DNA of 61,777 nucleotides from Candidatus Omnitrophota bacterium (GCA_043797735.1 JAZDPH010000035.1:1-61777); one strand, 5' to 3'; positions 2,550 to 56,825 are shown, counted from the first letter of the stretch. Numbers and translations: made by a program. Notes: generated from the letters alone by a model not told the origin.

Positions 2550-4136
2550 ATGATTAAGATTCTAGTCAGCGATGCATTGTCGGAAGAGGGCCTGAAGATA
2601 CTCAGAGAGGTTAAGGAATTTAAGGTTGATGTCAAGACCGGCATGAAGCCTGAGGAGTTGAAGGAGGCTGTTAAAAATTACGATGCCCTGCTGATAAGAA
2701 GCGCGACCAAAGTTACCAGAGAGGTCATTAACGCAGCCGATAAATTGAGGGTTATCGGCCGTGCCGGCGTAGGCCTGGATAATGTGGACCTGGAGGCGGC
2801 TACGCAAAAGGGGATAATCGTAATGAACACACCTGCCGGCAATACCATCTCCACCGCTGAACATACCATGAGCATGATTCTGGCGCTCTCCAGGAATATA
2901 GCGCAGGCGAATATCTCGATGAAAAAAGGCGAATGGAAGCGTTCAAAGTTTATGGGGGTTGAGCTTTACGCCAAGACGCTGGGGGTGGTGGGCCTGGGCA
3001 GGATCGGTTCGGAGTTGGTTAAGCGGGCCTTGTCTTTTGAGATGAAAGTTTTAGCATATGATCCGTTTCTTTCGCTGGAGGTGGCAAAAAACCTGGGGGC
3101 GGAAGTGGTGGAATTAAAGGAACTGCTTAAGCGCTCCGACTATATCAGTGTACATGCCCCTTTGGGCAAAGAGACAAAACATATGATTTCCGACGGTGAA
3201 TTCGCCTTAATGAAGAAGGGGGTGCGTGTCGTTAATTGCGCCCGCGGCGGAATTATTGACGAGGCAGCGTTGGTAAAGGCGGTTAAAGACGGCAAAGTGG
3301 CCGGCGCGGCTTTGGATGTGTTTGAAGAAGAGCCCTTGCCTGCAGAGAGCGAGCTTTTAAAATACGACAATATTATTCTTACTCCCCATTTAGGCGCCTC
3401 AACCGAAGAGGCCCAGGTTAACGTGGCCATTGAGGTATCGGAGATAGTGCGCGATGCTCTTCTAAACAGGGGGATTCGTAACGCCGCAAATTATCCCTGC
3501 CTTGAAGCTGAAACTGCCAAGATTATCCAGCCGCAGATCAATCTGGCAGAAAAGCTAGGGGCATTCGCCAGCCAGTTAATTGAAGGCAGGATTTGCGCGT
3601 TGAATATAAAATACAGCGGAGAGATTATCAAGCAGACTCTTGCGCCGCTTACGCTTGCGGTGGCAAAGGGGATGCTCTCTCCGATGCTGCAGGAGACGGT
3701 AAATTTTATAAATGCCGTGGCCTTAGCAAAAGAGCGGGGCATAAAGATAAGCGAGTCAAAGTCCTCCCAGGAGGAGGAGTTTGTGAGTTTAATTGAGCTG
3801 GAGCTTAAGACCGACAAAGAAACATACGCTATCTGCGGCACATTATCGGCTAATAAACAGCCGCGGGTGGTAAAGATAAATCAATATTATGTGGAGCTAT
3901 CTCCCTACGGAGAGATGATTTTTATACAGAACCTGGACAAGCCGGGCATCATCGGTAATTTAGGGACTCTTTTAGGAAAACACAACATTAATATCGCGGC
4001 AATGACCTTTGGCCGCGATAAGCGCGGCGGCCGGGCGATCAGCGTATTAAATGTGGACAGCCCCGTATCAGCTGCTATCCTGGATAAGATAAAGAAATTA
4101 AAGAATATTCTAACGGTAAAGGTAATAAAACTATGA
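2550..4136 (+). CDS. serA: D-3-phosphoglycerate dehydrogenase (long form with ACT domain)
   Basis: 528 aa with NAD fold GVVGLGRIG, a 2-hydroxyacid dehydrogenase core (NCARGG, HLGAST) and a C-terminal ACT-like segment. Confidence 0.92.
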   Translation: MIKILVSDALSEEGLKILREVKEFKVDVKTGMKPEELKEAVKNYDALLIRSATKVTREVINAADKLRVIGRAGVGLDNVDLEAATQKGIIVMNTPAGNTISTAEHTMSMILALSRNIAQANISMKKGEWKRSKFMGVELYAKTLGVVGLGRIGSELVKRALSFEMKVLAYDPFLSLEVAKNLGAEVVELKELLKRSDYISVHAPLGKETKHMISDGEFALMKKGVRVVNCARGGIIDEAALVKAVKDGKVAGAALDVFEEEPLPAESELLKYDNIILTPHLGASTEEAQVNVAIEVSEIVRDALLNRGIRNAANYPCLEAETAKIIQPQINLAEKLGAFASQLIEGRICALNIKYSGEIIKQTLAPLTLAVAKGMLSPMLQETVNFINAVALAKERGIKISESKSSQEEEFVSLIELELKTDKETYAICGTLSANKQPRVVKINQYYVELSPYGEMIFIQNLDKPGIIGNLGTLLGKHNINIAAMTFGRDKRGGRAISVLNVDSPVSAAILDKIKKLKNILTVKVIKL

Positions 4137-5875
4137 AGAGGCCTATTATTAAGTTAGCAGCCTTTCTGTTTTCTGTTTTCTGTTTTCTGGTTATTATATC
4201 TTCCGTTGCTTACGCAGGAGAAATTACCATTATTTATACCGGAGACACCCATGCGATGCTCTATCCTTGCAACTGTCCTATAGAGCCTGACGGAGGCATT
4301 GCTAGGAGAGTGGCTCTAATTAAAGAGTTAAGGGAAAAATATCCGGCCTGCCTGGTTTTGGATTCGGGAAATTTTTTCGCCGGCGGCCTTTTGGATGAAT
4401 ATACGCAGAATACCGGCCTTGATAAGAGGCGCACGATGATAAATCTAAAAGGCATGGAGATGGCCGGCTATGATGCCGTGGCAGTAGGCGATGCGGAATT
4501 CAATTTCGGCAAGGATTTTTTGCTGGAAAATATTGCTCAGGCGCAGATGCCTTTTCTTTCCTCTAACATTAACTTAAGTAAATTCCTGCCTTCGTTAGTC
4601 AAGGAAATTGACGGGGTCAAGATCGGCATCGTCGGGTTGACCGCGCCTTTGGCTGCCCAAAAGGCAGAGGGGTTGAAATTCATCGACCCCGAGATTGCCT
4701 TAGCCGCGCAGGTTAATGAATTAAAGAAGAACGGCGCAGACGTAATAGTGCTTTTAAGCAACCTGCAAACAGAAGAAAATCTGGTCTTAATCCAAAACAT
4801 AAAGGGGATAGATATTGTTATCGAGGGCGGCGATGCCCAGGGCAAGCCTTTTACAAAAATAGGCGACGCTGCAGTTGTTAAGGCCAGCCGGCAGGGCCGC
4901 CGGCTCGGCAAACTTACCTTTTCTTTAAAGGACAATAAGTTAACGGACTTTAAATCAGAGAATTTACGGCTTTCCGATGAAATTAAAAATGACCAGGATG
5001 TCCTTTCGGTATTACCGATGTGTTTTACAGATGCCAACTGCCGGCAGGACGGCCTGGAAGGCGCCTGTAAAGGCCCCGGGGAAAACAACGCATCCTGTGT
5101 ATTCGAAAAGTCAAATCCAGTAAAACTTTTGGTTATCACCGCCAGCAAATGCAAGACTTGCAATACATATGAGGTCATTGAGTCTTTGAAGAAACATTTT
5201 CCGGGGCTGGATATTTCTTACCTTTATTATCCCGGCAGAAAGGCGCAGAAGTTTATCAATGATTTCGCGATTGGAGCCCTGCCGGCGTATCTTTTTGGCG
5301 CGGAGGTTGAAAAAGACAGGAAATTCGCTAATTTCAAGAAGGACCTTGCAAAAAAGGACGGTTATTATTTATTATCGCCCCAGGCAAGCGGCATCGCTTA
5401 TTTTATTAATAGGAAAGAAGAGAAGAAAAGGTTTGATTTATTCTTGAGCCTGTTTGATAAGAACAGCCGGCAGGTTCTTGAGGTAACGCGGGAGTTTAAT
5501 CCGGAGGTGCATTTTCTGGCCGCTGAGAAGGGCGAGGGTTTTGATGCTGCCGCAGGCAGCATTGAGGCCGAGGAGTACCTGCGCGCGGCCTGCCTGAAGA
5601 AATACTATCCGGGAAAGTTCTGGGATTATATAAGCTGCCGGGCTGCCGATATCAATACCTCCTGGTGGGAGGATTGCGCCGGCGAAGTGGACAGGGATAA
5701 AATTAAAGCCTGCGCCAGGGGCGATGAAGGCAAGGGGCTTTTAAGGGATAATATAAGCATTAACAAAGAAATTCATGTTTTATTCGGGCCGGTATATATG
5801 ATAAATAATAATGAGATATTCAGCTCAAAAGGGGCCATTTCGAAAGAAGAATTGGAGAGGGTTATTAAAAAATAA
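4133..5875 (+). CDS. secreted 5'-nucleotidase/metallophosphoesterase-like protein with Cys-rich thioredoxin-like C-terminal half
   Basis: Has a signal peptide. The N-terminal half resembles the UshA/SoxB phosphoesterase fold (GDTHA, DSGNF), but the GNHEF motif reads GDAEF. The C-terminal half has CxxC-like Cys pairs. Confidence 0.55.
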   Translation: MKRPIIKLAAFLFSVFCFLVIISSVAYAGEITIIYTGDTHAMLYPCNCPIEPDGGIARRVALIKELREKYPACLVLDSGNFFAGGLLDEYTQNTGLDKRRTMINLKGMEMAGYDAVAVGDAEFNFGKDFLLENIAQAQMPFLSSNINLSKFLPSLVKEIDGVKIGIVGLTAPLAAQKAEGLKFIDPEIALAAQVNELKKNGADVIVLLSNLQTEENLVLIQNIKGIDIVIEGGDAQGKPFTKIGDAAVVKASRQGRRLGKLTFSLKDNKLTDFKSENLRLSDEIKNDQDVLSVLPMCFTDANCRQDGLEGACKGPGENNASCVFEKSNPVKLLVITASKCKTCNTYEVIESLKKHFPGLDISYLYYPGRKAQKFINDFAIGALPAYLFGAEVEKDRKFANFKKDLAKKDGYYLLSPQASGIAYFINRKEEKKRFDLFLSLFDKNSRQVLEVTREFNPEVHFLAAEKGEGFDAAAGSIEAEEYLRAACLKKYYPGKFWDYISCRAADINTSWWEDCAGEVDRDKIKACARGDEGKGLLRDNISINKEIHVLFGPVYMINNNEIFSSKGAISKEELERVIKK

Positions 5876-36870: not shown

Positions 36871-39800
36871 ATGGGCCTGCCGCAGATACCCGGGGCAAAG
36901 AAGAAGGGCGTAGTATTATTTGATGTTTCGGATGGCCTGGAAAAATTAGACGAGTATCTTATAAATGATACCGTCTGCATTGACGGACCGGCAGAACTCG
37001 CCATCCGCCTGGCCGGGGAGCTGAATCATAAATACAAAGTCGCCTCCAAAGTCGTAAACAGGGACAAATTTGAAAGAGAACTGCCCGCCTATATTGAAGT
37101 AATCAACAGCCCTATTCAGGAGATCGTCGGGGAAGGAAGGGCGGAGGCGGTTAAGTTTAAAAACGGCAAAGTTGTCGGGGTAAGTTTAGTCGTATTAATA
37201 AAAGGAGATAATATGTCAGAGCTATTAGTTCAGATGGGGACCAAGGGTGCGGCGGCGGTACTGGAGTTGACGCGCCAGTCGCTAAACGATGCGATTGCCG
37301 CCGGGGGCAGGGATAAACCGGTTGCTTTTCCCGAGACAAATTATTATCTGCCCCTGATAAATGTCTTATTGAATATTGAGGTCAGGAACCTGGGGGATTG
37401 CCTTCTTGCCTTAGAGCAGGCAGAGGCATTAAACAGGAATGAGGCGGCCAAGAGCGGCTTGATTATAAACAGCCTCGGCGGCATCCTGAATAAAGGCATC
37501 GCCACTTTAATCTGCGAGGAGCTCCTGGCGGTTCTGGCGGTTTCAAAAAAAGAGCACCCTAAGGCCGGTTTGGGTTTTGTGCCGGATAAGATACTGCGTT
37601 CGCTGGGATTACAGCTGGTTGACGGCAGGATCTCCGGCATCGCCGTAATCTTAGGGCCGGCTAAAGACGATGATTCCGCCGTAGAATTAATCAGGAATTT
37701 CCAGTCCAAGGGCATTGTCAGCCTCTTAGCCGGCAGCGCTTCAGGAAAAACTTTTGCCAGCCAGCTTGAGAATAAAAAAATAGAATTAGGGCTGGATAAT
37801 TATATTGTTGCCCTGGGGGAGGATTATTTATCGGCGATTTATGCGGTTAATTTTGCGGTAAGAGCGCCCTTAATTTACGGCGGATGCAAGCCCGGGCAGT
37901 GGGAGGCTGCAGCCGGTTATGTCCGCAATCGCGTGCCTGCTTTTGTTCTGCTTTTGGGGTATGTCGATGAGGTTATCGTTGCCACCGGCCTGGGTGTATT
38001 GGCTTTCGGCCTGCCGATTATAACCGACTTGGATGTGCCGCAGCTGCCTAAGATAGACACTACGCTTTATGAGGCGCTGGTTACCGAGAAGGACTATAAA
38101 AAAATTCCCTCAAAGTGTATTCTGGCGCGGGGGATTAAGGTGAAATTGGCAGAGGTGCCTGTGCCTGTGCCGTATGCCTCGGCCTTTGAAGGGGAGCGGG
38201 TGAAGAAAGACCAGCTGCAGGTTGAATTCGGAGGAAAGGCAAGCCTTGCCTTTGAATTTCTCTCATCCGCAAAGGAAGAGCAGGTTGATGACGGCAGGTT
38301 TGAGCTAATCGGCCCGGACATTGACCAGTTAGAGCCGGACAAGAAGTCTCTGCCCTTGGCAATTACAGTTGGAGTCTTTGGCCGCAAAATGCAGAAGGAT
38401 TTTGAGCCGATACTGGAACGCCAGATTCATCGTTTCATGAATTACGCCTGCGGGGTAATGCACGTGGGCCAGCGCGATATGAACTGGATACGCATCAGCC
38501 GTGATGCCTTTAATAAGGGTTTCAGGTTAAAGCATGTCGGGGTAATCCTGCATGCGATGCTGCATCAGGAATACAGCGCCATCGTAGATAAGGTTCAGGT
38601 TAAGGTTTACACAAAGCAGGATGAGGTAGAGAAACTATTGCCTGCCGCCAAAAAGGTGTTTGATGAGCGCGACGAACGCATCAGCGGGATGACCGATGAA
38701 AGTGTAAAGGATTTTTATTCGTGCCTGCTCTGCCAGTCCTTTGCCCCGAATCACGTTTGTATCGTAACCCCCGAGCGGCTGGGCCTCTGCGGGGCATATT
38801 CCTGGCTTGATGCCAAGGCGGCGTATGAGATTACCCCCACCGGGCCGAATCAGCCTATTACCAAAGGCAGCGTCTTGGACGAGCGGCTGGGCCAGTGGCA
38901 GAGCGTAAATGAGTTTATCTATCAGAAATCAAACAAGAGCATCGATAAGACCAGCATGTATTCGCTTATGGATTCCCCGCAATCGTCGTGCGTAGTGGGA
39001 AACACCCGAGTTATTATTGATAATGAATTAAAGCCCATAGGGGAATTTATAGATAATAATCGCGGAGGTGAAGAATATGCGAAGTCGGGAGTTTTTACTT
39101 TAAAGGAAAGTAAAGCAACTTCGGAGAGAATAGTGGCAATGCAAAGATTTGAACTGCCTGAGAAAAAAGATTTAGTTACTATAAGAACGAAAACCGGAAC
39201 GGAACTTATCCTTACTGGTGACCATCGGATTGCTACGGATAGGCCTGAGGGCCTAAATTGGATTCCGGCTTGCGAACTCAAAACGGGCGATAGAATAATC
39301 TCTTTAAAGAGGTTGGACATAAAAGAGGAAGTGCCGGATTTGCGCAGTTTAATCTCGGATGATTTGCCTCTAAAAGATAAAGTCCTTATGGAGACATCGG
39401 TAAATAAAGCCATAATAAATAAGGAATTATTTTATTTGATGGGTTTAATTGCCTCTGATGGCTCGGTTTTTAAGAGAGGAAACCGCGAATATGGCATATA
39501 TTTTGTGAATACAGGGAAAGAATTGATTAGCGAATATGAAAATTTATACAAAACTATCTTTCCTGAGAAAAATTTGCATGTCGGCATAAAAAAACCGAGG
39601 AAAGACGCTTTCATCAAAGGAAGAAGAATCCACTCCAAAAAGGATTGTTATGTATGTTATTCCAATAATTCTATTTTTGGAATTCTGCTTGAGTGCTTCG
39701 GAATAATCCCAAAGAAAAAAAGCAGGTGCCTTAAGAACATGGTAACTTTGCCGCGTGGATATATCGCGGGCTTTTTAACCGGTCTTTTTGACGGAGACGG

Positions 39801-40791
39801 AAGCATCAGACTGAGAAAATACGATAATAAATGGGATGTCGCAGAGGGCTACCTTTGCTGCCAGACTCAAGAACAAGGCTATTACCTTCAGTTATTATTA
39901 AAAAGGTTCGGCATAGTAAGCAATTTAAAGAAGTCCAATTCTATCTATAAAATTGAATTACACGGAAATAACATCTATGAATTTTGCAAGATTATAACGC
40001 CCGTCCATAGAGAAAAGAAAAAAATAACCGAGAAGATAAGGTTATTATATAAAGAGCCAAAGATAGACAAAACACAGGTTAATATCTTGCCCTTTTTTGT
40101 AGGAAAGAGGTTAGCCGACTTGCCCGAAAGTAAAAGTATGTTAAGCTCAAGCACTAACTTCTATTATAAGACTTTTCGCTCAAGGCCAACAGCGGATAAT
40201 CTACGTAAGGTTATCAATAATTCCGGCTCAAATGAGGCCAACGCATTGAGAGTATTTTTGGATAGCGATTTCTATTTGGATATTATTGATAAAGTCAAAA
40301 AAAATACAAAAAGGGAGAAATACGTTTATAACCTTACTTTGTCCGATACGCATTGTTATTTTGCTAACCAGGTGCTTATAAAGAATTGTGGTTGTTTTGA
40401 GTGTATCATTGCTATCATCCCCGAGGCAAACGGGGTGATGCTGGTGCACCGTGATTATTCCGGGATGACCCCCTGCGGGATGAGCTTTACCACCTTAGCC
40501 GGTTCGGTGGGCGGCGGGGCGCAGACCCCGGGATTTTTAGGCATAGGCAAACTTTATATATTAAGCAATAAGTTTATTTCCGCAGAAGGCGGCTTAAAAC
40601 GGGTAGTCTGGATGCCCAAAGAGTTAAAGGAAATATTGGGAGATAAGTTAAAAAAACGCGCAGAGGAGCTGGGCCTGCCGGATTTAATTGATAAAATTGC
40701 CGACGAAACAAAGGCACAAACCTCGGAAGAGCTCCAGAGTTATTTAGCCAAGGTAAAACATCCTGCCCTGGCGATGGAGCCGATGTTGTAA
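36871..40791 (+). CDS. acsB: acetyl-CoA synthase (CODH/ACS A-cluster subunit) precursor, interrupted by an intein, with a 114-aa in-frame N-terminal extension
   Basis: From Met115 (ATG 37213, behind AAAGGAGA) the translation appears colinear with bacterial AcsB as I recall it. It includes the [4Fe-4S] Cys motif CLLCQSFAPNHVCIVTPERLGLCG and the CGCFE Ni motif, and ends ...HPALAMEPML. Exteins from Met115 total 726 aa. Confidence 0.9.
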   Translation: MGLPQIPGAKKKGVVLFDVSDGLEKLDEYLINDTVCIDGPAELAIRLAGELNHKYKVASKVVNRDKFERELPAYIEVINSPIQEIVGEGRAEAVKFKNGKVVGVSLVVLIKGDNMSELLVQMGTKGAAAVLELTRQSLNDAIAAGGRDKPVAFPETNYYLPLINVLLNIEVRNLGDCLLALEQAEALNRNEAAKSGLIINSLGGILNKGIATLICEELLAVLAVSKKEHPKAGLGFVPDKILRSLGLQLVDGRISGIAVILGPAKDDDSAVELIRNFQSKGIVSLLAGSASGKTFASQLENKKIELGLDNYIVALGEDYLSAIYAVNFAVRAPLIYGGCKPGQWEAAAGYVRNRVPAFVLLLGYVDEVIVATGLGVLAFGLPIITDLDVPQLPKIDTTLYEALVTEKDYKKIPSKCILARGIKVKLAEVPVPVPYASAFEGERVKKDQLQVEFGGKASLAFEFLSSAKEEQVDDGRFELIGPDIDQLEPDKKSLPLAITVGVFGRKMQKDFEPILERQIHRFMNYACGVMHVGQRDMNWIRISRDAFNKGFRLKHVGVILHAMLHQEYSAIVDKVQVKVYTKQDEVEKLLPAAKKVFDERDERISGMTDESVKDFYSCLLCQSFAPNHVCIVTPERLGLCGAYSWLDAKAAYEITPTGPNQPITKGSVLDERLGQWQSVNEFIYQKSNKSIDKTSMYSLMDSPQSSCVVGNTRVIIDNELKPIGEFIDNNRGGEEYAKSGVFTLKESKATSERIVAMQRFELPEKKDLVTIRTKTGTELILTGDHRIATDRPEGLNWIPACELKTGDRIISLKRLDIKEEVPDLRSLISDDLPLKDKVLMETSVNKAIINKELFYLMGLIASDGSVFKRGNREYGIYFVNTGKELISEYENLYKTIFPEKNLHVGIKKPRKDAFIKGRRIHSKKDCYVCYSNNSIFGILLECFGIIPKKKSRCLKNMVTLPRGYIAGFLTGLFDGDGSIRLRKYDNKWDVAEGYLCCQTQEQGYYLQLLLKRFGIVSNLKKSNSIYKIELHGNNIYEFCKIITPVHREKKKITEKIRLLYKEPKIDKTQVNILPFFVGKRLADLPESKSMLSSSTNFYYKTFRSRPTADNLRKVINNSGSNEANALRVFLDSDFYLDIIDKVKKNTKREKYVYNLTLSDTHCYFANQVLIKNCGCFECIIAIIPEANGVMLVHRDYSGMTPCGMSFTTLAGSVGGGAQTPGFLGIGKLYILSNKFISAEGGLKRVVWMPKELKEILGDKLKKRAEELGLPDLIDKIADETKAQTSEELQSYLAKVKHPALAMEPML
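38989..40386 (+). mobile_element. intein (466 aa) with LAGLIDADG homing-endonuclease domain, inside acsB
   Basis: Starts with Cys (CVVGNTRVIID) and has block B LTGDH. Two LAGLIDADG motifs are present (LMGLIASDGSV near 39433-39470; FLTGLFDGDGSI near 39762-39806). It ends ...VLIKN followed by +1 Cys. The flanks join to LMDSPQSS-CGCFE. The segment is visibly more AT-rich than the flanking acsB sequence. Confidence 0.85.
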
Positions 40792-40852: not shown

Positions 40853-41086
40853 ATGTCTGTGATGATGAATAAAGAGCTTCTTATAAGAATGCCCTCTTCG
40901 CTTTATCAAGAAACAGTCAAACTTTGCAGGAAAAGATATATGTCAATATCCTCATTTATCCGGGAATTGCTTATTGAGCAGATAGAGAACTCTCTTGCTC
41001 CGGCAGAAGAAAAGATTGTTGCCGAAGGCGAAAGGCTGTACCTGAAAAGAAAAGGCGCTAACTGGAGAAAGGTAAAGCGTGGGTAA
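40853..41086 (+). CDS. ribbon-helix-helix (CopG-like) antitoxin
   Basis: 77 aa with a beta-strand/helix/helix pattern (LLIRMPSSLYQETVKLCRK..SISSFIRELLIEQ). It overlaps the downstream toxin gene by 8 nt. Confidence 0.7.
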   Translation: MSVMMNKELLIRMPSSLYQETVKLCRKRYMSISSFIRELLIEQIENSLAPAEEKIVAEGERLYLKRKGANWRKVKRG

Positions 41087-41351
41087 CTTTGAAGTTCTCC
41101 TAATGCCGGCAGCGCTTAAATTCTATAAGTCCTGCCCGGAAGAGCTGGCAAAGCGATTAAATAAGTGCTTTGAGGATATTGAAAGTAACCCTTTCTGGGG
41201 CCCGAATATCAAAGTGTTAAAAGGCCAGATGAGGCGATATAGATACCGGGTAGGAGATTACCGCGTGATTTATGGCATAGACAAAGAAAACAATAAAGTC
41301 TTTGTTACTTTAATTGCCTCCCGGCCCTCTGCATACAGAAATATAAATTGA
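41079..41351 (+). CDS. RelE/ParE-family type II toxin
   Basis: 90 aa with the YRYRVGDYRVIYGIDKENNKVFVTLIASR core typical of RelE/ParE toxins. GTG start overlaps the antitoxin stop. Confidence 0.85.
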   Translation: MGNFEVLLMPAALKFYKSCPEELAKRLNKCFEDIESNPFWGPNIKVLKGQMRRYRYRVGDYRVIYGIDKENNKVFVTLIASRPSAYRNIN

Positions 41352-52191: not shown

Positions 52192-53198
52192 TTCAACAGG
52201 CAGTAGAAAAATTATCGCAAAAAGCCGACTTAGAGCGCAAACAGATGCAGGAGGTTATGGAGGAGATTATGTCCGGGGCAGCCCAGACGGCTGAGATAGT
52301 TTCTTTTTTAACCGCTTTAAGCGCAAAAGGCGAGACGATAGAAGAGGTGACTGCCGCAGTTTCGGTAATGCGCCGTTATGTTACGGCGGTGCGCACAAAG
52401 CACAAGGTGGTTCTGGATACCTGCGGCACAGGCGGGGACAAGAAGGGGACCTTTAATATCTCAACCGCAGCGGCCCTTCTGGTAAGCGCCTGCGGCATCG
52501 CCGTTGCCAAACACGGCAACCGTTCGGTCTCCAGTAAGTCCGGGAGTGCTGATTGCCTGGAGGCGTTAGGGGTAAATATTAACCTGGATAAAGAAGAAAT
52601 AGAGAAGTGTCTTGATGAAGTCGGCATAGCTTTTTTATTCGCCCAGAATTTTCACCCGGCGATGAAATACGCTATGCCCGCCAGAAAAGAGATTGGCAAA
52701 AGGACGGTGTTTAATATCCTCGGCCCCTTGACTAACCCGGCGGCTGCCACGCATCAGCTGGTGGGGGTATATGACAGGCATTGGTTAGAGATATTAGCTC
52801 AGGCGCTGGGAAATCTGGGCACTACCCGCGCATTAATCGTGCACGGAGAGGACGGCCTTGATGAGATAACTACAACCGGCAGGACATTTATCTCTGAGGA
52901 GTATAAGGGCAGGATAAAAAATTATGAGTTGACTCCAGAAGAGTTTTCAATAAAAAGGGCGGCTCCGGAGGAGTTAGCCGGTGGCAGCGCTAAAGATAAC
53001 GCCGAAATTATACTTGAAATATTAGGCGGTAAGGCAGGGGCTAAGCGCGATATTGTAATACTTAATGCCGCAGCAGCCGTCTATGCGGCAGAGAAAGTAA
53101 ATTCAATTAAAGAGGGGATTGCCCTGGCAAAAGAGGCAATAGATAACGGCGCGGCCTTAAAGAAACTAAAACTATTAAAGGACTTTTCAAAGCGATGA
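52188..53198 (+). CDS. trpD: anthranilate phosphoribosyltransferase
   Basis: DTCGTGGD, KHGNRSVSSKSGSAD. Confidence 0.93.
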   Translation: MIQQAVEKLSQKADLERKQMQEVMEEIMSGAAQTAEIVSFLTALSAKGETIEEVTAAVSVMRRYVTAVRTKHKVVLDTCGTGGDKKGTFNISTAAALLVSACGIAVAKHGNRSVSSKSGSADCLEALGVNINLDKEEIEKCLDEVGIAFLFAQNFHPAMKYAMPARKEIGKRTVFNILGPLTNPAAATHQLVGVYDRHWLEILAQALGNLGTTRALIVHGEDGLDEITTTGRTFISEEYKGRIKNYELTPEEFSIKRAAPEELAGGSAKDNAEIILEILGGKAGAKRDIVILNAAAAVYAAEKVNSIKEGIALAKEAIDNGAALKKLKLLKDFSKR

Positions 53199-53983
53199 AG
53201 AAGATGGATACCTTAAAAGAGATTACGGCAAAAAAGAAGGAAAAGATACTTCTGGCAAAGGCCCAGATCAGCGAAGAGGAGCTAAAGGCCAGGGTTCAGA
53301 GCTTAGCGCCTGCCCGGCCCTTTATAGAGGCGATAAAGAAACCGCACACTATCTCCTTAATCGCTGAGCTCAAAAAGGCCTCCCCGTCGCAGGGAGTAAT
53401 CCGCCCGGAGTTTAACGTGCAGGAGATTGCCCGGGCCTATCAGCAGGCAGAAGTGCAGGCGCTTTCGGTGCTCACCGAAGAAGATTTCTTTCAGGGGAAC
53501 CTTTCCTATATAAACGAGGCCAAGGGCATTACACAATTACCTATATTAAGAAAAGATTTTATCCTTGAGCCGTATCAGGTTTATGAGTCGCGCTATTTTG
53601 GCGCGGATGCAATATTATTGATTGCGGATCTGCTCTCCAAGGAAAAGTTATCCGAGTTAATGGGCATAGCCGATTCCTTAGGCATGGATTGCCTGGTTGA
53701 GGTGCATGCGGAAAAAGAGCTAAAGAAAGTTTTAAGCCTCAAAGCCCCCCTAATCGGGATAAATAACCGCGACCTGCATACCTTGGAGGTCGACTTCAAA
53801 AATACAGAGAAACTCTTCCCCTTAATCCCCAAAGATAAAACCGTAGTCGTAGAAAGCGGCATTAAGAGCCGCCAAGACATTCTCTTCCTTAAAATCCTAG
53901 GCGTCAGCGCTGTGCTTATCGGCACTGCCTTTATGCAGGCAGAGGATATAGGGCGGAAGGTTGAAGAGATAATGGGATGGTAG
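53195..53983 (+). CDS. trpC: indole-3-glycerol phosphate synthase
   Basis: IAELKKASPS, LRKDFI, GINNRDL. Confidence 0.93.
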   Translation: MKKMDTLKEITAKKKEKILLAKAQISEEELKARVQSLAPARPFIEAIKKPHTISLIAELKKASPSQGVIRPEFNVQEIARAYQQAEVQALSVLTEEDFFQGNLSYINEAKGITQLPILRKDFILEPYQVYESRYFGADAILLIADLLSKEKLSELMGIADSLGMDCLVEVHAEKELKKVLSLKAPLIGINNRDLHTLEVDFKNTEKLFPLIPKDKTVVVESGIKSRQDILFLKILGVSAVLIGTAFMQAEDIGRKVEEIMGW

Positions 53984-53988
53984 TTGCT

Positions 53989-54022
53989 TTCTTCGTCAAG
54001 AATCCTTCTTCGTCAAGAATCC
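53989..54022 (+). repeat. perfect 17-nt tandem duplication
   Basis: TTCTTCGTCAAGAATCC occurs twice, immediately after the trpC stop. Confidence 0.85.
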
Positions 54023-54053
54023 GTAGCGGAGGTTTCAACCTCCGCTACGGATT
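54018..54053 (+). terminator. perfect 17-bp hairpin after trpC
   Basis: AATCCGTAGCGGAGGTT-TC-AACCTCCGCTACGGATT. No clear U-tract follows. Confidence 0.5.
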
Positions 54054-54096
54054 CAGCTTAGTCATTGCGAGCGAAGCGAAGCAATCTATCTCTAAT

Positions 54097-54284
54097 ATAT
54101 TTCGCTGCGGGGTTTGCTCGCGCACTGGAATTTTTTGCCGTGTGCTGCGGTTTACGGCTCGTTCGTTTGGCGAAATTCCCTCAGCTATCGCTTCGGTCAG
54201 TTTCGCCACTCACTCGCCGTAATTCCTTGCACACATCTGCCAAAAAATTCCTAATGTGCGCTCCCAAACCCCGCAGCGAAATAT
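54097..54284. repeat. long inverted repeat (about 45-nt arms, about 96-nt loop)
   Basis: ATATTTCGCTGCGGGGTTTG (54097-54116) is the exact reverse complement of 54265-54284. Imperfect pairing continues inward (GCGCAC, GGAATTTTTTG). Confidence 0.75.
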
Positions 54285-54421
54285 CGAGAGAATCTGTGCC
54301 CGCTCAAATTTTCGTACATGCTGCTCAAAGCAACCCTCGCCAGCCGCTCGCTCGGAAAATAGGGGACGTTTCTATTTTTCCATTTATCCCAAACGTGGAA
54401 GCGCTTGGGATTTTTTAATGA

Positions 54422-54500
54422 GTTAAGGTAGAAAGATGAGATTGACGCAAATATAGAGGAGTGGTAAAATAGGAAAAATGAGCGGTTTAAGGCGAAAGGA
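54422..54500 (+). repeat. promoter-leader module, copy 1 (about 80 nt)
   Basis: GTTAAGGTAGAAAGATGAGATTGACGCAAATATAGAGGAGTGGTAAAATAGGAAAAATGAGCGGTTTAAGGCGAAAGGA is near-identical to 55647-55728. Confidence 0.85.
54442..54470 (+). promoter_or_regulatory. sigma70-like promoter (copy 1 of duplicated promoter-leader module)
   Basis: TTGACG (54442-54447), 17 nt, TAAAAT (54465-54470), preceded by TGG. RBS AAAGGA lies before ATG 54506. Confidence 0.6.
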
Positions 54501-54505
54501 ACTTC

Positions 54506-55021
54506 ATGATGAGATTTGTTTTTATTGTAATTTTAGGTTTGGGTGTTGTTTTATGCAGTGAGGGTTGCGTTAATGCGCAAGTAACTATTCTTGCTGACTT
54601 AGGGGTGAGCGAAGAGGATTATTGTTATCATACTAAAATGGGTAGGGCTCTGTATAAAGGAATTTCCAATAAGCATTGCGTTTGTGATGGTAGTTTAGTT
54701 GAAGTTTTTCCGGATACCGATGAAGACGGCAATTCACTTATTCGTGCCAAACCTTATCCTGGCAGACTGCATGATTCATCAGATGTATACTGTAAAGGAA
54801 AAATTGTTGGTTATAAATTTTACTATAGGGATGCAGAAGGGACAAGAGAATTTGATACATTACAAGAGTGGGATAATTTCTGCAATACATTAGCCAAAAA
54901 TCAGGAAGATTGTTTTGATAATCTAAGCTATACTAAGGCAACAATAGATTACTATGATAATAAGAATACTAACGCAATAGAAGATTACTATAATAATAAA
55001 AAGAATAAAAAGAATAATTGA
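54506..55021 (+). CDS. small secreted Cys-containing protein with Asn/Lys-rich tail, unknown function
   Basis: 171 aa with a signal peptide (FIVILGLGVVLCSEGCVNA). The gene is markedly AT-rich compared with its neighbours. It has its own promoter and RBS. Confidence 0.55.
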   Translation: MMRFVFIVILGLGVVLCSEGCVNAQVTILADLGVSEEDYCYHTKMGRALYKGISNKHCVCDGSLVEVFPDTDEDGNSLIRAKPYPGRLHDSSDVYCKGKIVGYKFYYRDAEGTREFDTLQEWDNFCNTLAKNQEDCFDNLSYTKATIDYYDNKNTNAIEDYYNNKKNKKNN

Positions 55022-55141
55022 AATAAAAGATAATGGGGTCAGATTTATTTTTCTATCCCGAGCGCTTCCGTTCTTGGGATTTTTTGTTTGTGAGATTTTG
55101 CCATATCCTGCGTCTATTAGGGTAGAAAGGAGGCAGGATAA

Positions 55142-55651
55142 ATGATAAGCTCATTACTTATCGCAAAGATTGAAAGTAAAATATTCCAGATTCGAGGGAA
55201 AAAAGTTATGTTAGATAGAGATATCGCCTTTCTTTATGGCGTAAAACCTATAGCTTTAAGGCAGCAGGTAAAAAGAAATCGCGAGAGATTTCCAGAAGAT
55301 TTCATGTTTCATCTGACGAGCGAAGAGGCAAAAATCTTGGTATCACAAAATGTGATACCATCAATGAAAGTCTTGGGAGGTTATTTACCTTATGCTTTCA
55401 CCCAAGAAGGGGTTGCTATGCTTTCTAGTATTTTGCATAGCAGGCAGGCAGTGTTAGTTAATATTCAGATAATGCGTGTTTTTGTGAATTTAAGAAGAAT
55501 GGCTTTAACCTATGTTGGCCTAAAACGTAAAATAGATGAGATAGAGAAGAAATACGATGAGCAGTTTGCTGTGGTATTCCATGCGATAAAGCAACTGCTC
55601 GATCCGCCGCCGGAAAAGAAGAAGAGGATAATCGGGTTTCAGAGCCATTAG
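55142..55651 (+). CDS. ORF6N (KilA-N-like) DNA-binding domain protein
   Basis: IRGKKVMLDRDIAFLYGVKPIALRQQVKRNRERFPEDFMFHLT matches the ORF6N domain signature as I recall it. RBS AAAGGAGG. Confidence 0.8.
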   Translation: MISSLLIAKIESKIFQIRGKKVMLDRDIAFLYGVKPIALRQQVKRNRERFPEDFMFHLTSEEAKILVSQNVIPSMKVLGGYLPYAFTQEGVAMLSSILHSRQAVLVNIQIMRVFVNLRRMALTYVGLKRKIDEIEKKYDEQFAVVFHAIKQLLDPPPEKKKRIIGFQSH

Positions 55652-55728
55652 GGCAGAAAGATGAAGTTGACGTAAATATAGAGGAGTGGTAAAATAAGGA
55701 AAATGAGCGGGTTAAGGCGAAAGGAGCA
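55647..55728 (+). repeat. promoter-leader module, copy 2
   Basis: ATTAGGGCAGAAAGATGAAGTTGACGTAAATATAGAGGAGTGGTAAAATAAGGAAAATGAGCGGGTTAAGGCGAAAGGAG. Confidence 0.85.
55667..55695 (+). promoter_or_regulatory. sigma70-like promoter (copy 2 of duplicated promoter-leader module)
   Basis: TTGACG (55667-55672), 17 nt, TAAAAT (55690-55695). Nearly identical to 54442-54470. RBS AAAGGAG lies before ATG 55734. Confidence 0.6.
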
Positions 55729-55733
55729 TTGAG

Positions 55734-56072
55734 ATGCAGAAGAGGCTGGTTGGGATATTGGCAGTTTTGTTATTAGCGTTTCCTTTGGTTTGTTTTGGGC
55801 AGGAGGCTGCGCCTAAAGATGAAGGGCAGCCGGTAGAGGCCGTTATTGGCCAAGAGGGGCCTTCGGAATGTGAAAAGGCAGGGGGGCAGTTAACAAAGAC
55901 ACAAGAGTGCGACGGCTTAGAGAGCGATTGGTGCGTCATTTCCGAGAGGCAGCAGTGTTATGCCGACCAGGTCCAGGACGGAAAGTGCACAGTAGGAGAG
56001 TATTCAGAGGAACTTCAAGCAATAATCGGCATCACCCCGCGGGTCATCTGCGATAGTAAAGATAATCAATAA
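55734..56072 (+). CDS. small secreted Cys-rich protein, unknown function
   Basis: 112 aa with a signal peptide (ILAVLLLAFPLVCFG) and 8 Cys including the signal peptide (7 in the predicted mature part). Has its own promoter and RBS and is followed by a terminator. Confidence 0.55.
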   Translation: MQKRLVGILAVLLLAFPLVCFGQEAAPKDEGQPVEAVIGQEGPSECEKAGGQLTKTQECDGLESDWCVISERQQCYADQVQDGKCTVGEYSEELQAIIGITPRVICDSKDNQ

Positions 56073-56093
56073 TTATTCTTCGGAAGTTATCCA

Positions 56094-56129
56094 CCCCGTA
56101 GGGCAGGTTTTTAAACCTGCCCTACGGGG
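56094..56129 (+). terminator. intrinsic terminator-like hairpin closing the islet
   Basis: CCCCGTAGGGCAGGTTT-TT-AAACCTGCCCTACGGGG followed by the T-rich TTATTATTTTA. Confidence 0.65.
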
Positions 56130-56195
56130 TTATTATTTTACCCCCGCCGTTAAGTTTTTCTTGAAATGCCAACTAAAACTGATATCATAGGTGCT

Positions 56196-56825
56196 ATGAC
56201 GAAAGTAAAGATTTGCGGGATAACTAATCTGGAGGATGCGCTCAAGGTAGCTGATTTTGCGCCTGATGCGATGGGCTTTGTTTTTTATAAGAAGAGCCCG
56301 CGCTATATCACGCCGCTTAAGGCCTACGGCATAATCAGGCAGCTGCCGGTAGATATCCTTAAGGTGGGGGTATTTGTGGACGCCAGTGAAAAGGATGTCC
56401 GCCGCACTGCCAAGCTTTGCAACCTGGATATGCTGCAGTTCCACGGCAAGGAGTCGCCGAAGTTCTGCGATAAATTTGCCGAACGCAAGGTAATCAAGGC
56501 CTTCAGGATAAGGAATAACGTAAAAAAAGAGGATATCCTCAAATATAATACCTTTGCCTATCTTTTTGACGCCTTTGTCAAGAGTAAGCCCGGCGGGACC
56601 GGCAAGAGGTTTAACTGGAAACTGATTAAGAAATTAGGAGATTTAAAGCGGCCGATATTTTTGGGCGGAGGGCTTAACGAGAAAAATGTTTCCAAGGCAA
56701 TAGAGTTAATCGGCCCGGAATGGGTGGATGTCTCCAGTTCCGTGGAGATAAGGCCGGGTAAGAAGAATTGCGATAAGGTGAGAAGATTTATTGGGGCAGC
56801 AAGGAGCGCGTATGTTGCCGGATAA
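56196..56825 (+). CDS. trpF: phosphoribosylanthranilate isomerase
   Basis: [26 protein letters not shown]. The ORF opens at 56166; ATG 56196 fits family N-termini better. Confidence 0.9.

What the first reader, a model, noticed from the sequence alone, without database searches (positions are those of the whole stretch)
38989..40386. Full-length LAGLIDADG intein inserted at the Ni-binding Cys-Gly-Cys motif of acetyl-CoA synthase (AcsB)
Seen in sequence: the acsB reading frame is interrupted by 1398 nt (466 codons). The insert begins with Cys (CVVGNTRVIID) and contains a TxxH-type block B (LTGDH). It has two LAGLIDADG motifs with their acidic residues intact (LIASDGS, LFDGDGS) and ends VLIKN, followed by Cys. 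Removing it joins ...LMDSPQSS to CGCFECIIAIIPE..., which mirrors the contiguous ...SCGCFEAIMAILPE... of Moorella-type AcsB as I remember it. The spliced product from Met115 would be 726 aa, which is AcsB-sized. The +1 nucleophile would therefore be the first Cys of the CGC motif. To my knowledge, the Cys side chains and backbone amides of that motif ligate the A-cluster nickel atoms. The insert is visibly more AT-rich than the host gene, which fits horizontal acquisition. The penultimate residue is Lys rather than the usual His. I am not aware of inteins described in ACS. Inference: assembly of the carbon-fixing A-cluster would depend on protein splicing, and a Cys-dependent intein at a metal site could make splicing sensitive to redox state or metal availability.
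Basis: partly seen in the sequence, partly recalled or inferred. Interest (0 to 1): 0.85.

Follow-up and report, generated by a model that had tools for sequence, protein, structure and literature searches.

The report
Intein splitting acetyl-CoA synthase's nickel site
The gene for acetyl-CoA synthase, the key carbon-fixing enzyme of the Wood-Ljungdahl pathway, is interrupted in this (probably Omnitrophota) genome by a self-splicing mobile protein element sitting directly in front of the nickel-binding Cys-Gly-Cys motif; it belongs to a widespread family that I found described in no paper.

Summary
ORF 36871-40791 (1306 aa) is AcsB with an in-frame 466-codon insert at 38989-40386.

- **What the insert is.** It passes Pfam's curated thresholds for Intein_splicing and LAGLIDADG_3. 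Its model folds like archaeal intein-homing endonucleases. It has Cys1, TxxH, two LAGLIDADG motifs with intact Asp, a terminal Asn and Cys+1.
- **Where it sits.** Removing it gives a gapless alignment to Moorella ACS through Ser594|Cys595-Gly596-Cys597.
- **Empty sites.** Syntenic relatives with 87-89% identical exteins have an uninterrupted site.
- **Composition.** The insert is the lowest-GC 1.4-kb stretch of the window.

New findings:
- The same site is occupied in at least 9 species-level genomes of several bacterial phyla, and in archaeal MAG proteins.
- A second ACS site, before the Cys509 equivalent, is occupied in at least 31 species-level genomes. Some proteins carry both inteins, and mini-inteins exist.
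- All ACS inteins have a non-His penultimate residue, usually Lys, and Asn at block F position 4.
- Their nearest relatives sit in other Ni/Fe-S enzymes.

Correction: the spliced product is probably 840 aa, not 726. Redox or metal control of splicing remains untested.

Verdict: a new member (new host and insertion sites) of a known kind.

The parts
36871..40791 (+). acsB precursor ORF (1306 aa + stop): N-extein, intein, C-extein
   Evidence: ORF. ACS_CODH_B_C 395 bits, CdhC 206 bits, CODH_A_N 57 bits. E 2.5e-195 to solved ACS.
36871..38988 (+). N-extein (aa 1-706). It includes a 114-aa N-terminal extension and the A-cluster [4Fe-4S] cysteines.
   Evidence: One search aligns aa 126-706 to ACS residues 27-593 (7zkj_B numbering). 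Searches show the extension is conserved in four relatives.
36877..37209 (+). N-terminal extension homologous to the middle of a Pyr_redox_2 protein that is a separate upstream gene in related contigs
   Evidence: blastp 30-35% identity, E 1e-11 to 1e-16, to aa 112-224 of the L004/L005 Pyr_redox_2 genes. Searches give that gene's context.
38722..38790 (+). CLLCQSFAPNHVCIVTPERLGLC: the four [4Fe-4S]/bridging cysteines of the A-cluster (Moorella Cys506/509/518/528 equivalents). All are intact.
   Evidence: Alignments; coordinates. Residue roles are from established ACS structural literature (my knowledge).
38731..38733 (+). Codon of the Cys509 equivalent. This is the second ACS intein site ('site b'). 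It is empty in this window and occupied in many other genomes.
38989..40386 (+). Intein (466 aa), class-1 type with a LAGLIDADG homing-endonuclease domain ('AcsB site a' intein)
38989..39021 (+). Block A, with the Cys1 nucleophile (CVVGNTRVIID)
   Evidence: C1 is invariant in alignment A1.
39211..39225 (+). Block B, LTGDH (TxxH)
   Evidence: T76 and H79 are invariant, and LTxxH is present in all full-length ACS inteins.
39436..39462 (+). LAGLIDADG motif 1, LMGLIASDG (acidic residue Asp157)
   Evidence: D157 invariant; Pfam LAGLIDADG_3.
39775..39801 (+). LAGLIDADG motif 2, LTGLFDGDG (acidic residue Asp270)
   Evidence: D268 and D270 invariant.
40321..40386 (+). Blocks F and G: YVYNLTLSDTHCYFA NQVLIKN. 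Asn is at F:4, His at F:13, the penultimate residue is Lys465 and the terminal residue is Asn466.
   Evidence: N448, H455, K465 and N466 are invariant across a- and b-type ACS inteins in alignment A1.
40387..40791 (+). C-extein (134 aa + stop). It begins with the Cys-Gly-Cys Ni-binding motif (40387-40395); Cys+1 is the Moorella Cys595 equivalent.

Best explanation
The insert is a genuine class-1 intein carrying a LAGLIDADG homing endonuclease. It is a selfish mobile element living in acsB of a probable Omnitrophota bacterium.

**Proposed mechanism**
- The gene is translated as a 1306-aa precursor. The intein separates the [4Fe-4S]-binding cysteines (Moorella Cys506/509/518/528 equivalents, on the N-extein) from the Cys-Gly-Cys nickel motif, which forms the first three residues of the C-extein.
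- Cys1 makes a thioester with Ser(-1).
- The thiol of Cys+1, which later ligates nickel (Cys595 equivalent), takes over the N-extein by trans-thioesterification.
- Asn466 cyclises and releases the intein.
- An S-to-N shift leaves a native Ser-Cys peptide bond and a scar-free 840-aa ACS.
- Only then can the A-cluster be built.
- The freed intein, or the precursor, acts as a site-specific endonuclease on intein-free acsB alleles across the conserved ...CCGCARTCNTCN|TGYGGNTGYTTYGAR... sequence. It spreads by double-strand-break repair (homing).

**Shown:** the anatomy, the exact site, empty-site alleles, the family distribution, and purifying selection.

**Inferred:** that splicing and DNA cleavage really occur, and that Lys465 takes the role usually played by the penultimate His.
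For: - **Domain and fold evidence.** HMM matches exceed the curated cut-offs. The AF2 model (pLDDT 71) matches intein-endonuclease crystal structures at E 2e-17 to 3e-13.
- **Catalytic residues.** C1, T76/H79, H455, N466 and C+1 are all present. They are invariant across six ACS inteins that are only 25-60% identical and recur in the other ACS inteins recovered.
- **Precise insertion.** The spliced sequence aligns through the junction to Moorella and Carboxydothermus ACS with no gap there. 116 of the 120 closest homologues read [QT]S-S/T|CGCFEC contiguously.
- **Empty sites in synteny.** L001 and L003 carry the same fchA-folD-metF-acsB-TPR-polA order with uninterrupted acsB.
- **Independent occurrences.** The same intein at the same site occurs in independent metagenomes (P0002-4, P0121-123 and others).
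- **Purifying selection.** pN/pS is about 0.22-0.33 in every sub-region of the intein, including the endonuclease domain, against three alleles with saturated synonymous sites.
- **Mobile-element signatures.** Composition is foreign: GC 0.368 against 0.504, the lowest of any 1.4-kb window. Distribution is patchy: the nearest exteins (87-89% identity) lack the intein. Mini-inteins without the endonuclease also occupy the site, as the homing cycle predicts.
Against: - No experiment shows splicing or DNA cleavage.
- Two positions depart from the commonest intein consensus: the penultimate residue is Lys rather than His, and block F:4 is Asn rather than Asp. Splicing could therefore be slow or conditional.
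- The C-terminal 15 residues of the AF2 model have low confidence, so active-site geometry could not be checked.
- This allele lacks a roughly 60-aa helical module found between the N-terminal splicing lobe and the endonuclease in P0003, P0004 and all b-type inteins. That may weaken DNA recognition.
- The closest intein in 5.8 billion proteins is only 67% identical, so there is no sign of very recent mobility.
- Inteins are lower in GC than their exteins in all four alleles examined. AT-richness is therefore partly a property of the element rather than proof of recent transfer.
Confidence: 0.85

Rival explanations
1. The intein has been co-opted as a conditional switch. This is compatible with the main explanation and adds a function to it. 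Splicing, and hence ACS maturation, would be blocked when Cys1, Cys+1 or Cys+3 are oxidised to a disulfide. It would also be blocked when Ni, Zn or Cu binds the Cys-Gly-Cys junction before splicing. Oxygen-labile ACS would then be completed only under reducing, metal-appropriate conditions.
For: - Three cysteines lie at the active junction: C1, C+1 and C+3, with C+6 nearby.
- Published precedents exist: a disulfide trap in the P. abyssi MoaA intein, and zinc/copper inhibition of DnaB, RecA and Prp8 inteins (PMC10663303; PMC5874633).
- Both ACS intein sites place an A-cluster ligand Cys at +1.
- The unusual K-N C-terminus and F:4 Asn are strictly conserved.
- Related inteins sit before cysteines of CxxC-type motifs in HdrA-like, NuoB-like and [NiFe] large-subunit-like proteins.
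Against: - Nothing here measures splicing.
- Inteins generally home to conserved active-site codons because these cannot mutate away. A metal-ligand Cys at +1 is therefore expected for a purely selfish element.
- Most ACS genes lack inteins, including this organism's nearest relatives (114 of the 120 best hits). That argues against an important regulatory role.
Confidence: 0.2
2. The intein no longer splices. The gene would then be a dead or dying acsB whose product cannot form an A-cluster.
For: The penultimate residue and block F:4 are non-canonical. A helical module is deleted relative to related alleles. One related genome (L011) shows stop codons inside its ACS intein.
Against: - The 3.9-kb ORF is uninterrupted.
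- All A-cluster ligands and all essential splicing residues are intact.
- The non-canonical residues are invariant family traits, not private mutations.
- pN/pS is about 0.14 (dN/dS 0.10) for the exteins against L001 and about 0.22-0.33 for the intein.
- acsB sits in a conserved methyl-branch gene cluster.
Confidence: 0.06
3. The insert is an assembly chimera or another kind of insertion (transposon, BIL/Hint domain, domain fusion) rather than an intein.
For: The window is probably metagenome-derived. GC drops sharply at the insert.
Against: - The insert is exactly in frame and a whole number of codons long. It is bounded by Cys1 and Asn|Cys.
- Homologous inserts occupy the same codon boundary in many independent assemblies and phyla.
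- No inverted repeats or transposase are needed to explain it.
- BIL domains lack an endonuclease and a +1 nucleophile context in conserved enzymes (my knowledge).
Confidence: 0.02

Closest known systems
Archaeal LAGLIDADG inteins with solved structures: TliVMA/PhoVMA (7qss, 7qst), PI-PkoII (2cw7), PI-PfuI (1dq3), PI-SceI (1vde)
   Same: Both have a bipartite Hint splicing domain interrupted by a two-motif LAGLIDADG endonuclease. Both have Cys1, TxxH, a terminal Asn and a +1 nucleophile. These are the best fold matches, at E 2e-17 to 1e-7, and the best PDB sequence matches.
   Different: Sequence identity is only 11-18%. Their hosts are ATPases, polymerases and RNR, not a Ni-Fe-S enzyme. The ACS inteins have Lys/Ala instead of His at the penultimate position and Asn at F:4.
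Pyrococcus abyssi MoaA intein (redox-trapped) and Mycobacterium tuberculosis SufB intein (oxidative/nitrosative stress sensor)
   Same: Both are inteins inside oxygen-sensitive metal-cluster proteins, with catalytic cysteines near other cysteines. They are the published paradigm for conditional protein splicing (PMC10663303; PMC5874633).
   Different: Regulation of those inteins was shown experimentally; here it is only conjecture. In ACS the +1 nucleophile itself is a future nickel ligand. No sequence relationship to those inteins was tested here.
Cyanobacterial DnaE inteins lacking the penultimate His
   Same: They show that a class-1 intein can work with Ser or Ala in place of the penultimate His (PMC5874633). 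The ACS inteins likewise never have His there.
   Different: The ACS inteins use Lys (less often Ala, Gln or Arg), are contiguous rather than split, and carry a homing endonuclease.
Multi-site intein hosts such as haloarchaeal MCM (sites a-d)
   Same: One conserved gene has several intein sites close together, occupied singly or jointly (PMC10643990, listed). ACS has two sites 86 residues apart, sometimes both filled.
   Different: The host is a metabolic enzyme, not a replication enzyme. Both ACS sites are metal-ligand cysteines of one cofactor.
Related inteins found here in HdrA-like, NuoB/hydrogenase-small-subunit-like, [NiFe]-large-subunit/NuoD-like and TPP-enzyme hosts
   Same: They are the next-best profile matches after the ACS inteins, at 225-273 bits. 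They share Cys1, Cys+1 and a non-His penultimate residue (S or K).
   Different: The hosts differ. F:4 is Asp where it was inspected (L015, L040) rather than Asn. I found no description of them either, but did not search specifically.

Membership tests
Class-1 intein (Hint-fold protein-splicing element) | Nucleophilic Cys/Ser as first residue | tested here: met
   Cys707 of the ORF is intein Cys1. It is invariant in alignment A1.
Class-1 intein (Hint-fold protein-splicing element) | Block B TxxH | tested here: met
   LTGDH, with T76 and H79 invariant.
Class-1 intein (Hint-fold protein-splicing element) | C-terminal Asn followed by a Cys/Ser/Thr +1 extein residue | tested here: met
   ...LIKN|CGC. 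N466 is invariant.
Class-1 intein (Hint-fold protein-splicing element) | Penultimate His. This is frequent but not obligatory: DnaE inteins have Ser/Ala (PMC5874633). | tested here: not met
   Lys465. The 28 other ACS intein C-termini tabulated read K-N (25) or A-N (3); the genome scan adds R-N and Q-N. This is a family trait, not a defect of this copy, and does not bar membership.
Class-1 intein (Hint-fold protein-splicing element) | Profile-HMM match above the curated threshold | tested here: met
   PF14890 at 52.4 bits against a cut-off of 35.8.
Class-1 intein (Hint-fold protein-splicing element) | In-frame insertion in a conserved host protein, with intein-free orthologues and seamless restoration on removal | tested here: met
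Class-1 intein (Hint-fold protein-splicing element) | Hint fold | tested here: met
   AF2 model (pLDDT 71) with Foldseek top hits to intein crystal structures. The C-terminal strands have low confidence.
Class-1 intein (Hint-fold protein-splicing element) | Actual protein splicing | not testable with these tools
   Needs expression of the precursor or proteomics.
LAGLIDADG homing endonuclease (monomeric, two-motif) | Two LAGLIDADG motifs, each with the catalytic acidic residue | tested here: met
   LMGLIASDG and LTGLFDGDG. D157 and D270 are invariant.
LAGLIDADG homing endonuclease (monomeric, two-motif) | Profile-HMM and fold match | tested here: met
   PF14528 at 58.3 bits against a cut-off of 22.5. 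Foldseek hits to I-DmoI, I-SceI, I-AniI and others.
LAGLIDADG homing endonuclease (monomeric, two-motif) | Site-specific cleavage of the intein-less allele | not testable with these tools
   Only indirect evidence: pN/pS of 0.22-0.29 in the endonuclease domain and a patchy distribution.
Acetyl-CoA synthase (AcsB / CdhC, A-cluster enzyme), the host | ACS domains and all six A-cluster cysteines (Moorella 506, 509, 518, 528, 595, 597) | tested here: met
   Pfam CdhC, ACS_CODH_B_C and CODH_A_N. Alignments to 1oao_C and 7zkj_B. Ligand roles are from the structural literature (my knowledge).
Conditional (redox- or metal-gated) protein splicing | Cysteines positioned to form a disulfide or metal site at the splice junction | tested here: inconclusive
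   C1, C+1, C+3 and C+6 are present in the sequence. No reliable geometry is available.
Conditional (redox- or metal-gated) protein splicing | Splicing rate responds to redox state or metal | not testable with these tools
   Biochemical assay required.
Bacterial intein-like (BIL) domain (considered and rejected) | Hint domain without an endonuclease, in variable or secreted proteins, usually lacking a +1 nucleophile | tested here: not met
   An endonuclease is present, the host is a conserved enzyme and Cys+1 is present. The BIL definition is from my knowledge.

The most novel reading that the evidence does not exclude
ACS inteins may belong to a hitherto unrecognised clade of inteins with Cys1/Cys+1 and a non-His penultimate residue. 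This clade would specialise in the metal-ligand cysteines of anaerobic Ni/Fe-S enzymes: ACS Cys509 and Cys595, the [NiFe]-hydrogenase-type RxCGxC motif, and HdrA- and NuoB-type Cys motifs. Splicing in this clade would be gated by metal or redox state. Cofactor insertion into these oxygen-sensitive enzymes would then be coupled to protein splicing, adding a post-translational checkpoint in Wood-Ljungdahl carbon fixation.
Probability: 0.15. Interest if true: 0.8.

Novelty: new member of a known kind. Interest (0 to 1): 0.58.

Why it matters
- **Unusual host.** The large prokaryotic survey read here found 61-67% of intein-containing proteins in replication/repair and 8-22% in nucleotide metabolism. 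Its main text does not mention ACS (PMC4760082). Here an intein interrupts the signature enzyme of the Wood-Ljungdahl pathway, at a residue that later binds the catalytic nickel.
- **Recurrent pattern.** This is not a one-off. There are two sites, both A-cluster cysteines, occupied in dozens of species-level genomes of bacteria and archaea.
- **For ACS biochemistry.** In these organisms metallocluster assembly must follow protein splicing. This gives a natural system for asking whether Ni or redox state controls maturation.
- **For intein research.** The finding offers a conserved K-N/F:4-Asn variant of the splicing active site. It also offers a Cys-Gly-Cys +1 context that can itself bind metal.
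- **For annotation.** Several such precursors are currently mislabelled as 'LAGLIDADG family homing endonuclease' or 'hypothetical protein', which hides ACS genes in metabolic reconstructions of MAGs.

Tried and rejected
1. **Literature.** Ten full-text searches paired 'intein' with acetyl-CoA synthase, carbon monoxide dehydrogenase, CdhC, acsB, acetyl-CoA decarbonylase, Wood-Ljungdahl and Omnitrophica. None found a paper describing an ACS intein. The 'acsB' search only matched ACS-journal DOIs. The supplements of the Novikova survey are not held, so its full list could not be checked.
2. **Are a-type and b-type ACS inteins sisters, with one lineage hopping between the two sites?** An a-only profile scores b-type inteins at 170-238 bits. 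That is no better than inteins from hydrogenase-like, HdrA-like or NuoB-like hosts, which reach 264 bits. The hypothesis is not supported.
3. **A third ACS site.** The roughly 1,800-aa ORFs in Thermoflexus and Anaerolineae looked like triple-intein proteins. They are instead ACS with one b-type intein and a long extra C-terminal region, which I did not identify by HMM.
4. **Other inteins in the window.** A six-frame HMM search found none.
5. **Viral vectors.** IMG/VR holds only weak generic LAGLIDADG or intein matches, at most 34% identity apart from two 34-residue matches at 47%.
6. **Rfam scan of the window.** No hits.
7. **dS-based dN/dS.** Synonymous sites are saturated for most comparisons, so only pN/pS is usable.
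8. **Active-site geometry from the AF2 model.** Abandoned because the last 15 residues have pLDDT below 50.

Full report
**1. The observation**

The window has one uninterrupted ORF on the + strand, 36871-40791, of 1306 aa. Residues 707-1172 (nt 38989-40386, 466 codons) form the insert. It begins CVVGNTRVIID and ends NQVLIKN, and the next residues are CGCFEC.

Pfam finds the ACS domains on the whole protein: CODH_A_N, CdhC, and ACS_CODH_B_C split in two. On the insert it finds Intein_splicing (52.4 bits, cut-off 35.8) and LAGLIDADG_3 (58.3 bits, cut-off 22.5).

Against solved structures, the N-extein aligns to Carboxydothermus and Moorella ACS up to the residue before the Cys-Gly-Cys motif. 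The C-extein resumes exactly at that motif. A 240-aa in-silico spliced segment aligns in one stretch across the junction to Moorella ACS 1oao_C 489-728. This puts the junction at Ser594|Cys595-Gly596-Cys597.

Insert GC is 0.368 (GC3 0.395) against 0.504 (0.586) for the exteins. It is the lowest-GC 1398-nt stretch of the window, at the 0.08th percentile and about 4 SD below the mean.

**2. Anatomy of the insert**

- An AlphaFold2 model built on six ACS inteins has mean pLDDT 71. It shows a beta-rich splicing domain at both ends, two alpha/beta LAGLIDADG half-domains and a helical region at aa 341-425.
- The best Foldseek matches in the PDB are intein-homing endonucleases. They are TliVMA (E 2e-17), PI-PkoII, PI-PfuI, PhoVMA and PI-SceI, followed by free-standing LAGLIDADG enzymes.
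- These positions are invariant in an alignment of inteins that share only 25-60% identity:
  - Cys1;
  - Thr76 and His79 (block B);
  - Asp157 and Asp270 (the acidic residues of the two LAGLIDADG motifs);
  - His455 (block F);
  - Lys465 and Asn466.
- Two positions differ from the commonest intein consensus.
  - The penultimate residue is Lys, not His.
  - Block F reads VYNLT where many inteins have VYDL. The block numbering is by analogy with the Ssp DnaE and Mtu RecA inteins, from my own knowledge.
  - Both are family traits. The 28 other ACS intein C-termini tabulated read K-N (25) or A-N (3), never H-N, and all have Asn at that block-F position. The genome scan adds R-N and Q-N.

**3. Host, surroundings and empty sites**

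The best 120 homologues of the precursor are ACS proteins, and every source name attached to them is Candidatus Omnitrophota/Omnitrophica. Most are 840-870 aa long.

The mature product is therefore probably 840 aa. That extension is homologous to the middle of a Pyr_redox_2 protein encoded as a separate gene just upstream of acsB in two related contigs.

Two contigs share the gene order fchA(FTCD_C)-folD-metF-acsB-TPR-polA with the window. Both carry an uninterrupted acsB: L001 (P0005) and L003 (P0006), with 87-89% extein identity near the site. Their DNA at the site reads ...CCGCAGTCTTCC|TGCGGGTGCTTT.... These are natural empty sites.

The window holds no other intein.

**4. The same intein elsewhere, and a second site**

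Three other Omnitrophota-type precursors (P0002-4) carry 465-528-aa inteins at the same codon boundary. They are 58-60% identical to the window's intein over aligned positions.

I searched 5.8 billion proteins with a profile of six ACS inteins. This returned 27 hits, 24 of them ACS fragments or precursors. Most end [KA]N|CGCFEC. Source names include Omnitrophota, Actinomycetota, Methanosarcinales and Thermoplasmatota.

P0007 and P0119 carry a different, roughly 540-aa intein between ...YSCxL and CQSFAPNH. That position is directly before the equivalent of Moorella Cys509 (numbering from the ungapped rows). From the ACS structural literature (my knowledge), Cys509 bridges the [4Fe-4S] cube to the proximal nickel. 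Cys595 and Cys597 bridge the two nickels.

A pattern scan of one genome per GTDB species gives these counts, which are lower bounds:

| Occupancy | Species-level genomes | Loci or taxa |
|---|---|---|
| Site a (CGC / Cys595) | at least 9 | L006-L013 and L018 |
| Site b (Cys509) | at least 31 | see list below |
| Both sites (included in both counts above) | 4 | L008, L012, L013, L018 |

- Site a genomes include Omnitrophota, Aerophobetes, Actinomycetota, Chloroflexota and Ca. Subteraquimicrobium.
- Site b genomes include Anaerolineae, Chloroflexia, Thermoflexus, Omnitrophota (one a complete chromosome, CP070780), Armatimonadota, Bipolaricaulota, Fraserbacteria, Clostridia, Aerophobetes and Methanomassiliicoccales.
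- Proteins P0124 and P0126 also carry both inteins.

Mapping every recovered ACS against the intein-free reference found only these two sites. Mini-inteins of about 150-175 aa without an endonuclease also occupy site a: P0124, P0140, P0141, P0143 and L018. This is the stage expected late in a homing cycle.

**5. Selection and history**

Against three other site-a alleles, pN/pS is 0.22-0.33 in every part of the intein, including the endonuclease domain. Synonymous sites are saturated. Exteins give dN/dS of 0.06-0.10 against the two closest alleles. Both activities of the element therefore appear to have been under purifying selection.

Intein identity falls together with extein identity. Within Omnitrophota it is 50-67% against 70-81%. 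In more distant hosts (one named Actinomycetota) it is 34-39% against 57-62%. This fits long residence with mostly within-lineage spread.

The window's nearest extein relatives lack the intein, and its GC is far below that of the host gene. That fits either acquisition from a lower-GC relative or loss in the sister lineages. I cannot tell which.

No close copy exists in the databases (maximum 67% identity). Viral contigs hold only weak generic matches.

**6. Relatives in other hosts**

An exhaustive profile search of 1.84 billion representatives gave 158 hits at E<=1e-30. The seven best (387-807 bits) are all ACS inteins or intein-only fragments. The next tier scores 273 bits or less in single matched stretches.

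Pfam scans and junction inspection of that tier show inteins in these hosts:

| Host | Junction |
|---|---|
| HdrA-like flavo-Fe-S proteins | DC[SA]I\|C ... VVSN\|CIEGP |
| NuoB/Oxidored_q6 protein | LDCGS\|C ... VVKN\|CNGC |
| [NiFe]-hydrogenase/NuoD-type large subunits | RxCGI\|C |
| TPP enzyme | ...IYV\|C (C-junction not resolved) |
| A/V-ATPase B | TDMTNY\|C ... SN\|CEALREI |
| Archaeal MCM (lower scores) | canonical H-N\|T |

Many of the better-scoring non-ACS relatives thus share Cys1, Cys+1 and a non-His penultimate residue, and sit in front of a cysteine of a metal-binding-type motif.

An a-only profile scores b-type ACS inteins no higher than these other inteins. I therefore do not claim that the two ACS inteins are sisters.

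**7. How it most likely works**

- **Shown.** This is an intact class-1 intein plus LAGLIDADG endonuclease. It sits at a precisely defined site and has conserved catalytic residues, empty-site alleles and a mobile-element-like distribution.
- **Inferred from the established intein mechanism** (PMC5874633).
  - Cys1 forms a thioester.
  - Cys+1 (the future Ni ligand) accepts the N-extein.
  - Asn466 cyclises, and an S-N shift restores Ser-Cys.
  - The [4Fe-4S] ligands lie on the N-extein and Cys-Gly-Cys opens the C-extein. A 466-aa domain lies between them, and the Cys+1 thiol is needed for splicing chemistry. The A-cluster can therefore only be completed after splicing.
- **Inferred.** The endonuclease cuts empty acsB alleles and drives homing.
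- **Speculative.** Lys465 may replace the penultimate His in assisting Asn cyclisation.
- **Speculative.** Oxidation of C1/C+1/C+3 or premature metal binding to Cys-Gly-Cys may stall splicing.
  - Precedents are the MoaA disulfide trap and Zn/Cu inhibition of other inteins (PMC10663303).
  - From memory only: Cys-Gly-Cys peptides by themselves bind Ni(II) in an N2S2 site.

**8. Comparison with what is known, and novelty**

It works like, and passes the membership tests for, a class-1 LAGLIDADG intein. The only unmet common feature is the penultimate His, which is not obligatory (PMC5874633).

What is new:
- the host (ACS/CdhC);
- the two insertion sites at A-cluster cysteines;
- the breadth of the family;
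- its conserved K-N/F:4-Asn signature.

Full-text searches under every ACS synonym found no description. The main prokaryotic intein survey does not mention ACS in its text, and its supplementary tables were not available. Several database entries are annotated merely as 'LAGLIDADG family homing endonuclease' or 'hypothetical protein'.

I rate it a new member of a known kind with moderately high interest. It would surprise ACS specialists and makes 'does cofactor or redox state gate splicing?' directly testable. Nothing about the element itself is categorically new.

Noticed in passing
window 38731-38733 (empty here); occupied in P0007, P0119, P0127, P0128, P0148, P0151 and in L014, L016-L033 (except L015), L037-L039, L041, L044, L055: There is a second ACS intein site ('site b'), directly before the Moorella Cys509 equivalent (SCxL|CQSFAPNH). 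It holds a roughly 540-aa LAGLIDADG intein that also ends K-N. In the genome scan it is commoner than site a and spans many phyla, including Chloroflexota, Omnitrophota, Clostridia and Methanomassiliicoccales.
   Followed up: yes
P0124, P0126; L008, L012, L013, L018: Some ACS precursors carry inteins at both A-cluster sites at once. In P0124 and L018 the site-a copy is a mini-intein (165-176 aa) without an endonuclease.
   Followed up: partly
P0153, P0154, P0157, P0160, P0162, P0163, P0185, P0198; L015 (3001-4629): The nearest non-ACS relatives of these inteins sit in HdrA-like, NuoB/Oxidored_q6, [NiFe]-hydrogenase/NuoD-type and TPP-enzyme proteins, and in a protein with a CxxxCxxC motif (P0185, not HMM-tested). 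They typically end S-N or K-N and sit before a Cys of a metal-binding-type motif. This hints at an intein clade associated with anaerobic metalloenzymes.
   Followed up: partly
window 36877-37209 (aa 3-113 of the acsB ORF): The N-terminal extension of AcsB is homologous (30-35% identity) to the central part of a roughly 300-aa Pyr_redox_2 protein. That protein is a separate gene just upstream of acsB in L004 and L005. In the window and in L001 and L003 only this fragment remains, fused in frame to AcsB and conserved (62-72% identity).
   Followed up: partly
window 40853-41351: A small toxin-antitoxin pair lies directly downstream of acsB: a 77-aa upstream ORF at 40853-41086 and a ParE_toxin ORF at 41079-41351 (Pfam 33 bits). 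It is absent from the syntenic contigs L001 and L003, where the acsB-TPR gap is only 36-155 nt.
   Followed up: partly
window 53984-56165: A low-GC stretch of about 2.2 kb lies between two neighbouring ORFs that look like tryptophan-pathway genes (53195-53983 and 56166-56825; judged from their sequences, not HMM-tested). It contains an ORF6N-domain protein (55142-55651, Pfam 106 bits) and small Cys-rich ORFs with signal-peptide-like N-termini. It is probably a small inserted island.
   Followed up: partly
L011 (Ca. Subteraquimicrobium carltonvillense UBA2594), match 3001-4582: This site-a ACS intein shows in-frame stop codons or frameshifts in its C-terminal third. It is either a decaying copy or an assembly error in the MAG.
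   Followed up: no
L023, L026, L030, L044, L055 (Thermoflexus/Anaerolineae): These ACS ORFs of about 1,780-1,850 aa carry one site-b intein plus an extra C-terminal region of roughly 500 aa. By eye it resembles another CODH/ACS subunit, but it was not identified by HMM. This appears to be a gene fusion.
   Followed up: no
NCBI entries MDP3732267.1, MEW6189596.1, MFQ6063597.1, MDI6707958.1, MCX5704110.1: Public ACS precursors with inteins are annotated as 'LAGLIDADG family homing endonuclease' or 'hypothetical protein'. Metabolic reconstructions could therefore miss ACS genes.
   Followed up: partly
window intein aa ~135-145, compared with P0003, P0004 and all b-type inteins: The window's intein, like P0002's, lacks a roughly 60-aa helical module that lies between the N-terminal splicing lobe and the first LAGLIDADG motif in other ACS inteins. 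The effect on DNA recognition is unknown.
   Followed up: no
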